Shown: piece by piece, positions 41,231-42,208 of the stretch | Position numbering within the stretch: the first letter of the stretch is position 1 | How the letters are laid out: each line of letters starts with the position of its first letter | Assembly: GCF_003334785.1 (NCBI RefSeq) | Contig: NZ_QOWV01000003.1 | Source of the DNA: Escherichia coli | GTDB taxonomy: Bacteria > Pseudomonadota > Gammaproteobacteria > Enterobacterales > Enterobacteriaceae | DNA: 64,000 nt | Direction: 5' to 3' (one strand) | Program-made: the position numbers and the translations under genes | The notes under the pieces: model-generated | Seen by the model: only the letters and a program-made list of their open reading frames with translations | The model's database searches: none | Told to the model about the DNA's origin: nothing

Positions 41231-42208
41231 ATGAGCGAAACGGCATCCTGGCAGCCGAGCGCATCCATTCCTAACTTATTAAAACGCGCGGCGATTATGG
41301 CGGAGATCCGTCGTTTCTTTGCCGATCGTGGAGTGCTGGAGGTGGAGACGCCTTGTATGAGCCAGGCGACGGTAACCGATATTCATTTGGTCCCGTTTGA
41401 GACACGTTTCGTTGGCCCCGGGCATTCGCAGGGGATGAATCTCTGGTTAATGACCAGCCCGGAATACCATATGAAACGCCTGCTGGTTGCCGGTTGTGGG
41501 CCGGTATTCCAGCTGTGCCGCAGCTTCCGTAATGAAGAGATGGGGCGTTATCACAACCCTGAGTTCACTATGCTGGAGTGGTATCGACCGCACTATGATA
41601 TGTACCGGTTGATGAACGAGGTAGACGATCTCTTACAACAGGTGCTGGACTGCCCGGCAGCAGAAAGCCTTTCTTATCAACAAGCTTTCTTGCGTTATCT
41701 GGAAATTGACCCGCTCTCTGCCGACAAAACGCAACTGCGGGAAGTCGCAGCGAAACTGGATTTGAGCAATGTTGCTGATACCGAAGAAGACCGCGACACG
41801 CTGCTACAATTGCTGTTTACCTTTGGCGTAGAGCCAAATATTGGCAAAGAAAAACCGACCTTTGTGTACCACTTTCCAGCCAGCCAGGCATCACTGGCGC
41901 AAATCAGTACCGAAGATCATCGGGTCGCTGAACGCTTTGAGGTTTATTATAAAGGTATTGAGCTGGCGAATGGTTTCCATGAATTGACGGATGCCCGTGA
42001 GCAGCAACAACGCTTTGAACAAGATAACCGTAAGCGCGCGGCGCGCGGTTTGCCGCAGCACCCCATTGACCAGAATCTGATTGAAGCCTTGAAAGTCGGT
42101 ATGCCTGACTGTTCCGGCGTGGCATTAGGTGTTGATCGTCTGGTGATGTTGGCGCTGGGCGCGGAGACACTGGCTGAAGTCATCGCCTTTAGCGTTGACC
42201 GGGCATAA
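41231..42208 (+). CDS. epmA: EF-P-lysine lysyltransferase (LysRS catalytic-domain paralogue)
   Basis: ORF 41186..42208; start moved to [30 protein letters not shown] (325 aa); class II aaRS motif 2 shared with LysU. Confidence 0.92.

What the first reader, a model, noticed from the sequence alone, without database searches (positions are those of the whole stretch)
41231..42208. EpmA is visibly a LysRS catalytic-domain paralogue of LysU encoded 28 kb away
The motif-2 region of EpmA ([28 protein letters not shown]) aligns by eye with LysU ([28 protein letters not shown]), while EpmA lacks the N-terminal anticodon-binding domain. The window therefore holds both a true lysyl-tRNA synthetase (lysU, 11788-13305) and its repurposed paralogue that lysylates EF-P instead of tRNA.
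Basis: seen in the sequence. Interest (0 to 1): 0.25.

Follow-up and report, generated by a model that had tools for sequence, protein, structure and literature searches.

The report
EpmA, a truncated lysyl-tRNA synthetase paralogue

Summary
The window is E. coli K-12-like chromosome. EpmA (41231-42208, +) aligns with LysU (11788-13305, -) at 31.5% identity over the whole class II catalytic core (E = 1e-44). The similarity goes well beyond motif 2: with motif 2 masked E is still 4e-29, and shuffled controls reach at most 25 bits against 147 observed. Pfam finds the OB anticodon-binding domain only in LysU.

LysU is 100% identical to crystallised heat-inducible LysU (1E1O/1LYL). EpmA matches crystallised GenX (3A5Y/3A5Z) at 738 bits over all 325 residues.

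Three refinements:
- EpmA is equally distant from housekeeping LysS (30.5%), while LysS and LysU are 88.7% identical. So EpmA is an ancient paralogue of class II LysRS in general, not of LysU, and the 28 kb proximity is probably coincidental.
- The substrate is (R)-beta-lysine. The published selectivity residue Ala298 aligns with Gly476 of LysU.
- The more meaningful neighbours are epmB and efp, 7 kb upstream of epmA.

The truncated-LysRS nature of YjeA/EpmA was published in 2010. Interest is low.

The parts
41231..42208 (+). epmA (yjeA/poxA/genX): EF-P--(R)-beta-lysine ligase, 325 aa, class II aaRS catalytic core only
   Evidence: ORF. NCBIfam NF006828 scores 604.4 bits (cut-off 264) over 1-325/325, and TIGR00462 scores 440.3 (cut-off 286.9). 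Pfam finds tRNA-synt_2 only. PDB 3A5Z/3A5Y match at 738 bits over 1-325. RefSeq annotates epmA here, and the gene is present in 5426/5426 complete E. coli genomes.
41519..41602 (+). EpmA class II motif 2 region (aa 97-124, [28 protein letters not shown])
   Evidence: Exact string located. 54% identical to the LysU counterpart, the best-conserved segment of the alignment.
42122..42124 (+). Codon for EpmA Ala298, the published alpha/beta-lysine selectivity gate in motif 3
   Evidence: Three-way alignment puts EpmA A298 opposite Gly476 in both LysU and LysS. The preprint read states that A298 supports (R)-beta-lysine activation and that A298G reverses the preference to (S)-alpha-lysine.
11788..13305 (-). 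lysU: heat-inducible class II lysyl-tRNA synthetase, 505 aa
   Evidence: ORF. NCBIfam PRK12445 scores 1203.6 bits (cut-off 1026) and TIGR00499 scores 799.8 (cut-off 427.6). Residue-for-residue identical to PDB 1E1O/1LYL 'LysU, heat inducible'. Sits in the ghoT-lysU-dtpC-cadA context, whereas lysS lies downstream of prfB.
12868..13104 (-). LysU OB-fold anticodon-binding domain (aa 68-146), the module EpmA lacks
   Evidence: Pfam PF01336 tRNA_anti-codon, E = 6.3e-17, found in LysU and with no counterpart in EpmA. In the alignment EpmA begins opposite about LysU residue 170.
12445..12528 (-). LysU class II motif 2 region (aa 260-287, [28 protein letters not shown])
   Evidence: Exact string located.
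33217..34245 (-). epmB (yjeK): KamA-family radical-SAM lysine 2,3-aminomutase, described in the literature as the source of EpmA's (R)-beta-lysine substrate
   Evidence: ORF. NCBIfam TIGR03821 EFP_modif_epmB scores 533.9 bits (cut-off 369.3). CxxxCxxC motif at aa 120.
34287..34853 (+). efp: elongation factor P, the acceptor substrate of EpmA; the Lys34 codon is at 34386-34388 in the PGKGQ loop
   Evidence: ORF. NCBIfam TIGR00038 scores 253.6 bits (cut-off 185.8). Residue 34 is K within [13 protein letters not shown]. Modification of K34 by EpmA is described in PMC6544042.

Best explanation
The window is an E. coli K-12-like chromosome segment holding two descendants of the class II lysyl-tRNA synthetase lineage. 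LysU is a complete synthetase. Its N-terminal OB anticodon-binding domain recognises tRNA-Lys, and its catalytic core activates alpha-lysine with ATP and esterifies it to tRNA. EpmA is the catalytic core alone. It keeps the class II motifs 1-3 and the residues aligned with LysU's ATP and lysine sites, so it still forms an aminoacyl-adenylate. An Ala replaces Gly at position 298, which biases it to (R)-beta-lysine. EpmB, encoded 7 kb upstream, is described in the literature as the source of that beta-lysine. With no anticodon-binding domain, EpmA transfers the amino acid to the epsilon-amino group of Lys34 of EF-P. EF-P, also encoded 7 kb upstream, is L-shaped and takes the place of tRNA. Modified EF-P rescues ribosomes stalled at polyproline. 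Shown here: homology, domain architecture, gene identities, the A298/G476 correspondence, and the presence of efp(K34) and epmB. Taken from the literature: the chemistry, substrate specificity and physiological role. The EpmA/LysRS split is ancient, far older than the lysS/lysU duplication, so the 28 kb proximity to lysU is most likely coincidental.
For: Homology covers the whole core: 31.5% identity, E = 1e-44, still significant with motif 2 masked and in each flank alone, and shuffles reach at most 25 bits. Architecture: the OB domain is found only in LysU. EpmA exceeds the curated EpmA equivalog cut-offs (604 vs 264; 440 vs 287) but falls below every LysRS cut-off (223 vs 468; 214 vs 428). 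EpmA matches crystallised GenX, alone and in complex with EF-P (3A5Y/3A5Z), at 738 bits over 1-325, and LysU is identical to crystallised LysU. Conserved aligned residues are EpmA R100, E102, H108, N109, F112, E116, Y118, E244, E251 and R303, matching LysU R263, E265, H271, N272, F275, E279, Y281, E422, E429 and R481; A298 faces G476. Equidistance: EpmA-LysU 31.5%, EpmA-LysS 30.5%, LysU-LysS 88.7%; LysRS chains from four other PDB entries score 141-146 bits against EpmA, versus 138 for LysU. Partner genes epmB and efp (K34) lie in the window. [quoted passage not shown] PMC6544042 describes K34 beta-lysylation by EpmA. The 2026 preprint describes the A298 gate and shows that grafting the LysS anticodon-binding domain onto EpmA restores tRNA charging.
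Against: Nothing found contradicts this. Two caveats apply. No enzymology can be done here, so the chemistry rests on published work, and the primary papers (Yanagisawa 2010, Roy 2011) could not be opened and are cited only through papers that summarise them. The central segment, EpmA 125-207, is only 24% identical to LysU and is not significant on its own, so homology there rests on the flanking context and on the known structures. I built no phylogeny; the antiquity of the split is inferred from pairwise scores.
Confidence: 0.97

Rival explanations
1. EpmA arose by a relatively recent local duplication of lysU itself followed by loss of the N-terminal domain, so the 28 kb proximity is a footprint of that event.
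For: The two genes lie 27.9 kb apart. EpmA scores marginally higher against LysU than against LysS (147 vs 140 bits) and matches LysU at 5 versus 2 of the aligned columns where LysU and LysS differ.
Against: EpmA is about 31% identical to both isoforms, while LysU and LysS are 88.7% identical. EpmA scores as well or better against LysRS chains from four other PDB entries. The genes are on opposite strands and separated by about 25 unrelated genes. epmA is in 5426/5426 complete E. coli genomes, whereas about 214 records carry only the ~80%-identical lysS copy and so lack lysU. yjeA is widespread in bacteria and clusters with efp, not with lysRS genes.
Confidence: 0.01
2. EpmA is, or also is, a minimalist tRNA-charging enzyme in vivo, acting on the tRNA acceptor stem without an anticodon-binding domain.
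For: The catalytic residues are intact. The 2026 preprint reports that strongly overexpressed EpmA_A298G, without a grafted anticodon-binding domain, rescues a lysS lysU double deletion, which suggests residual acceptor-stem affinity.
Against: That rescue needed both a mutation (A298G) and overexpression, and was less efficient than the chimera. Wild-type EpmA prefers beta-lysine and its established acceptor is EF-P Lys34. EpmA scores below all LysRS family cut-offs. The co-crystal 3A5Z holds the same protein with EF-P.
Confidence: 0.03
3. The resemblance is confined to the generic class II motif 2 and reflects shared class II chemistry, not specific LysRS ancestry.
For: Motif 2 is the best-conserved stretch (54% identity), and EpmA also hits AspRS and AsnRS models.
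Against: Masking motif 2 leaves E = 4e-29, and both flanks are independently significant. LysRS models score 214-223 bits, against 92 or less for AspRS and 35 or less for AsnRS. The top 37 non-EpmA PDB hits are all LysRS.
Confidence: 0

Closest known systems
E. coli EpmA / GenX / PoxA / YjeA (PDB 3A5Y, 3A5Z; Salmonella PoxA 3G1Z)
   Same: It is this protein. The match covers the full length at 738 bits over residues 1-325, the score is above both curated NCBIfam equivalog cut-offs, and RefSeq annotates epmA at 100% nucleotide identity.
   Different: No difference seen.
E. coli LysU (PDB 1LYL, 1E1O) and LysS (1BBU): class II lysyl-tRNA synthetases
   Same: EpmA shares the class II catalytic fold, motifs 1-3 and the aligned ATP and lysine-site residues, at about 31% identity over about 306 residues.
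   Different: EpmA lacks the first ~170 residues, including the OB anticodon-binding domain. It has Ala298 where LysRS has Gly476, a divergent central segment (24% identity), and scores below the LysRS family cut-offs. It uses (R)-beta-lysine and a protein acceptor.
Other truncated aaRS catalytic-core paralogues: GluQ-RS (YadB) and archaeal asparagine synthetase AS-AR
   Same: They follow the same evolutionary logic: a synthetase catalytic core that has lost its anticodon-binding domain and been redirected to a non-canonical acceptor. PMC2821294 draws this comparison.
   Different: They derive from different parent synthetases (GluRS class I; AsnRS) and have different acceptors (queuosine of tRNA-Asp; aspartate amidation). 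Only EpmA acylates a protein.

Membership tests
EpmA (EF-P--(R)-beta-lysine ligase; NCBIfam NF006828 / TIGR00462) | Full-length score above the curated equivalog cut-off | tested here: met
   NF006828 scores 604.4 bits against a cut-off of 264, covering 1-325/325. TIGR00462 scores 440.3 against 286.9.
EpmA (EF-P--(R)-beta-lysine ligase; NCBIfam NF006828 / TIGR00462) | Single-domain class II (D/K/N-type) catalytic core with no anticodon-binding domain | tested here: met
   Pfam finds only PF00152, at aa 15-322 of 325. The alignment starts opposite about LysU residue 170-187.
EpmA (EF-P--(R)-beta-lysine ligase; NCBIfam NF006828 / TIGR00462) | Alanine at the alpha/beta-lysine gate (A298), where LysRS has glycine | tested here: met
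   A298 aligns with G476 of both LysU and LysS. The gate's role comes from the preprint read.
EpmA (EF-P--(R)-beta-lysine ligase; NCBIfam NF006828 / TIGR00462) | Co-occurrence with an EF-P carrying Lys34 and with the aminomutase EpmB | tested here: met
   efp lies at 34287-34853 with K34 in PGKGQ, and epmB at 33217-34245 with a CxxxCxxC motif. Both score above the NCBIfam cut-offs.
EpmA (EF-P--(R)-beta-lysine ligase; NCBIfam NF006828 / TIGR00462) | Catalyses ATP-dependent beta-lysylation of EF-P Lys34 | not testable with these tools
   This rests on published biochemistry for a protein that matches this one over its full length (3A5Z), as summarised in PMC6544042 and the 2026 preprint.
Class II lysyl-tRNA synthetase (TIGR00499 / PRK00484 / PRK12445), applied to the 505-aa protein | Score above the curated cut-off, with OB anticodon-binding domain plus catalytic core | tested here: met
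   PRK12445 scores 1203.6 against 1026, and TIGR00499 scores 799.8 against 427.6. PF01336 covers 68-146 and PF00152 covers 162-501.
LysU isoform (as opposed to LysS) | Sequence identity to characterised LysU, and the lysU chromosomal context | tested here: met
   100% identical to 1E1O/1LYL 'heat inducible LysU', versus 88.7% to LysS. The neighbours are ghoT, dtpC and cadA, whereas lysS follows prfB. RefSeq/PGAP names both genes 'lysS'.
Class II lysyl-tRNA synthetase, applied to EpmA | Score above the curated LysRS cut-off, and presence of an anticodon-binding domain | tested here: not met
   PRK00484 scores 223 against 468, TIGR00499 scores 214 against 427.6 and PRK12445 scores 136 against 1026. 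No OB domain is present. EpmA is a homologue of LysRS, not a member of the family.

The most novel reading that the evidence does not exclude
The co-location within about 30 kb of four lysine-centred units might not be chance. The units are lysU; cadCBA (lysine decarboxylase, antiporter and its regulator CadC, described in the literature as polyproline-containing and EF-P-dependent); epmB-efp; and epmA. They could reflect selection for a supra-operonic 'lysine / EF-P / acid-stress' neighbourhood. My data neither support nor exclude this. The only functional link I can cite is that CadC translation depends on modified EF-P.
Probability: 0.05. Interest if true: 0.3.

Novelty: already known. Interest (0 to 1): 0.05.

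Why it matters
EpmA is a well-known case of a tRNA synthetase catalytic core redirected to modify a protein (EF-P) that mimics tRNA. It is still being exploited: a 2026 preprint turns EpmA back into a synthetase for beta-amino acids by grafting the LysS anticodon-binding domain onto it. For this scan the value is only that of a correct annotation.

Tried and rejected
- **Primary papers:** I tried to open Roy et al. 2011 and Yanagisawa et al. 2010 by DOI. Neither is held, so their results are cited through PMC6544042, PMC2821294 and the 2026 preprint.
- **Failed call:** one fetch of an annotated region failed because the flank was too large, and I repeated it.
- **Structure prediction and fold search:** considered and not run, because crystal structures of both proteins exist.
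- **Large homologue and genome-contig scans for a formal EpmA/LysRS phylogeny:** considered and not run. The cost is not justified for a published relationship, and the pairwise equidistance with the PDB score ranking already answers the question.
- **Upstream in-frame TTG at 41186 as the EpmA start:** rejected. The family model and the crystal constructs begin at the ATG at 41231, which has a GGAG 8 nt upstream.
- **Similarity is motif-only:** rejected by the masking and split tests.
- **Recent duplicate of lysU:** rejected by the equidistance to LysS.

Full report
**Observation**

The epmA ORF runs 41231-42208 on the + strand. An in-frame TTG lies at 41186, but the ATG at 41231 has a GGAG 8 nt upstream and gives the 325-aa product that matches the family model end to end. 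lysU runs 11788-13305 on the - strand and encodes 505 aa. The two quoted peptides occur exactly: EpmA aa 97-124 (nt 41519-41602) and LysU aa 260-287 (nt 12445-12528), with 15 of 28 residues identical. The genes are 27.9 kb apart on opposite strands.

**Is the similarity more than chance, and more than the motif?**

- BLASTP aligns EpmA 19-324 with LysU 187-502 at 31.5% identity, 147 bits, E = 1e-44.
  - EpmA 1-96 alone gives E = 1e-12.
  - EpmA 125-325 alone gives E = 9e-24.
  - The full protein with motif 2 replaced by X gives E = 4e-29.
  - Two hundred shuffles of EpmA scored a mean of 17 bits and a maximum of 25.
- By segment, identity to LysU is 38% (aa 19-96), 54% (motif 2), 24% (aa 125-207) and 34% (aa 208-325). 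The central segment is the only part not recognisably similar on its own.

**Domain architecture**

Pfam finds a single tRNA-synt_2 domain in EpmA (aa 15-322). In LysU it finds a tRNA_anti-codon OB domain (68-146) followed by tRNA-synt_2 (162-501). EpmA therefore corresponds to the catalytic core alone, beginning near the linker that precedes LysU's core.

**Identity of the two genes**

- The window is E. coli chromosome, 99.99% identical to an MG1655 record over its first 33.5 kb.
- The 505-aa protein is residue-for-residue identical to crystallised heat-inducible LysU (1E1O/1LYL). It lies between ghoT and dtpC-cadA-cadB-cadC. RefSeq labels both LysRS genes 'lysS', but the real lysS follows prfB.
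- EpmA matches crystallised GenX, alone and in complex with EF-P (3A5Y, 3A5Z), at 738 bits over residues 1-325.
- In NCBIfam, EpmA clears both EpmA equivalog cut-offs (604 vs 264; 440 vs 287) but falls well below every LysRS cut-off (223 vs 468; 214 vs 428). LysU clears the LysRS cut-offs. EpmA is thus a homologue of LysRS, not a member of that family.

**Refinement 1: paralogue of what?**

I fetched LysS from a genome that lacks lysU.

| Pair | Identity | Bits |
|---|---|---|
| EpmA vs LysU | 31.5% | 147 |
| EpmA vs LysS | 30.5% | 140 |
| LysU vs LysS | 88.7% | 939 |

(All.)

- Against the PDB, EpmA scores 141-146 bits to LysRS chains from four other entries (36lw, 3a74, 9slz, 9jkl), versus 138 for LysU and 130 for LysS.
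- So the EpmA/LysRS split long predates the lysS/lysU duplication, and EpmA is a paralogue of class II LysRS in general.
- About 25 unrelated genes lie between lysU and epmA.
- epmA is present in all 5426 complete E. coli genomes, whereas about 214 records carry only the ~80%-identical lysS copy.
- The 28 kb proximity is therefore most likely coincidence.

**Refinement 2: chemistry**

- According to PMC6544042, EpmA attaches (R)-beta-lysine to the epsilon-amino group of EF-P Lys34. EpmC then hydroxylates the product.
- The 2026 preprint states that A298 is the backbone-selectivity gate and that A298G reverses the preference to alpha-lysine.
- In my alignment A298 lies opposite Gly476 of both LysU and LysS. 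The aligned R, E, H, N, F, E, Y, E, E and R residues of motifs 2 and 3 and the intervening strands are identical.
- That preprint also shows that grafting the LysS anticodon-binding domain onto EpmA restores tRNA charging. This is a direct experimental confirmation of the "catalytic core minus ABD" reading.

**Refinement 3: the relevant neighbours**

The window also contains epmB (33217-34245, -), which has a radical-SAM CxxxCxxC motif at aa 120. It also contains efp (34287-34853, +), which has Lys34 in the PGKGQ loop. The two are divergently arranged, 41 bp apart and about 7 kb upstream of epmA. PMC2821294 reports physical clustering of efp, yjeA and yjeK in 183 genomes, with E. coli being the efp/yjeK type.

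**Novelty**

None. [quoted passage not shown] Structures, biochemistry and engineering have followed. The finding is a correct reading of a well-known locus, and interest is low.

**Side observations**

- The window has two tandem tRNA-Gly(GCC) genes (50948-51134) where MG1655 has three. This is a natural copy-number polymorphism.
- A guanidine-II riboswitch sits upstream of sugE.
- CadC carries its PPP motif at residue 120, which the literature links to EF-P dependence.

Noticed in passing
window 50948-51134 (+): There are only two tandem, identical tRNA-Gly(GCC) genes here, separated by a 35-bp spacer. MG1655 and strain FDAARGOS_1248 have three (glyV, glyX, glyY), so the window is 112 bp shorter. 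The retained spacer matches the second (glyX-glyY type) spacer, which fits unequal recombination between identical tRNA copies. At least 21 other complete E. coli genomes are annotated with two copies at this site, and at most 626 of 5426 could carry that form, so it is an ordinary copy-number polymorphism. It also shows the window is K-12-like but not MG1655 itself.
   Followed up: yes
window 35399-35445 (+): Rfam finds a guanidine-II (mini-ykkC) riboswitch at 50.4 bits (gathering score 32), immediately upstream of the SMR transporter gene sugE/gdx (about 35463-35780). This is a known element.
   Followed up: no
window 20157-20165 (-), within cadC 18984-20522: CadC carries a PPP run at residues 120-122 (SSPPPIPE). 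PMC6544042 describes CadC as a polyproline-containing regulator whose translation, and hence PcadBA activity, is used as the reporter for EF-P/EpmA function. So a client of the EpmA pathway lies between lysU and epmA in the same window.
   Followed up: partly
window 34246-34286: The epmB and efp start codons are divergent and only 41 bp apart, so at least one promoter must overlap the neighbouring coding sequence.
   Followed up: no
window 11788-13305 (lysU) across E. coli genomes: About 214 of 5430 matching records have only an ~80%-identical copy (lysS), meaning lysU is missing from roughly 4% of complete E. coli genomes. RefSeq/PGAP also names both loci 'lysS', which hides the distinction. 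I did not examine what replaces lysU in those genomes.
   Followed up: partly
window 21139-21214 (-) and about 20781-20940: tRNA-Phe (pheU) sits next to a frameshifted integrase fragment annotated in the MG1655 record, a remnant of a tRNA-targeted integration site.
   Followed up: no
window 4219 and 7638: These are the only two differences from MG1655 record NZ_CP032667.1 across window 1-33500: one extra C at 4219 (yjdF-fumB intergenic) and A versus G at 7638 (dcuB-dcuR intergenic).
   Followed up: partly
window 41603-41851 (EpmA aa 125-207): The segment between motif 2 and the C-terminal half is the least LysRS-like part of EpmA. It is 24% identical, shorter than the LysU counterpart, and not significant on its own. 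It corresponds to the variable region between motifs 2 and 3 in class II enzymes.
   Followed up: partly
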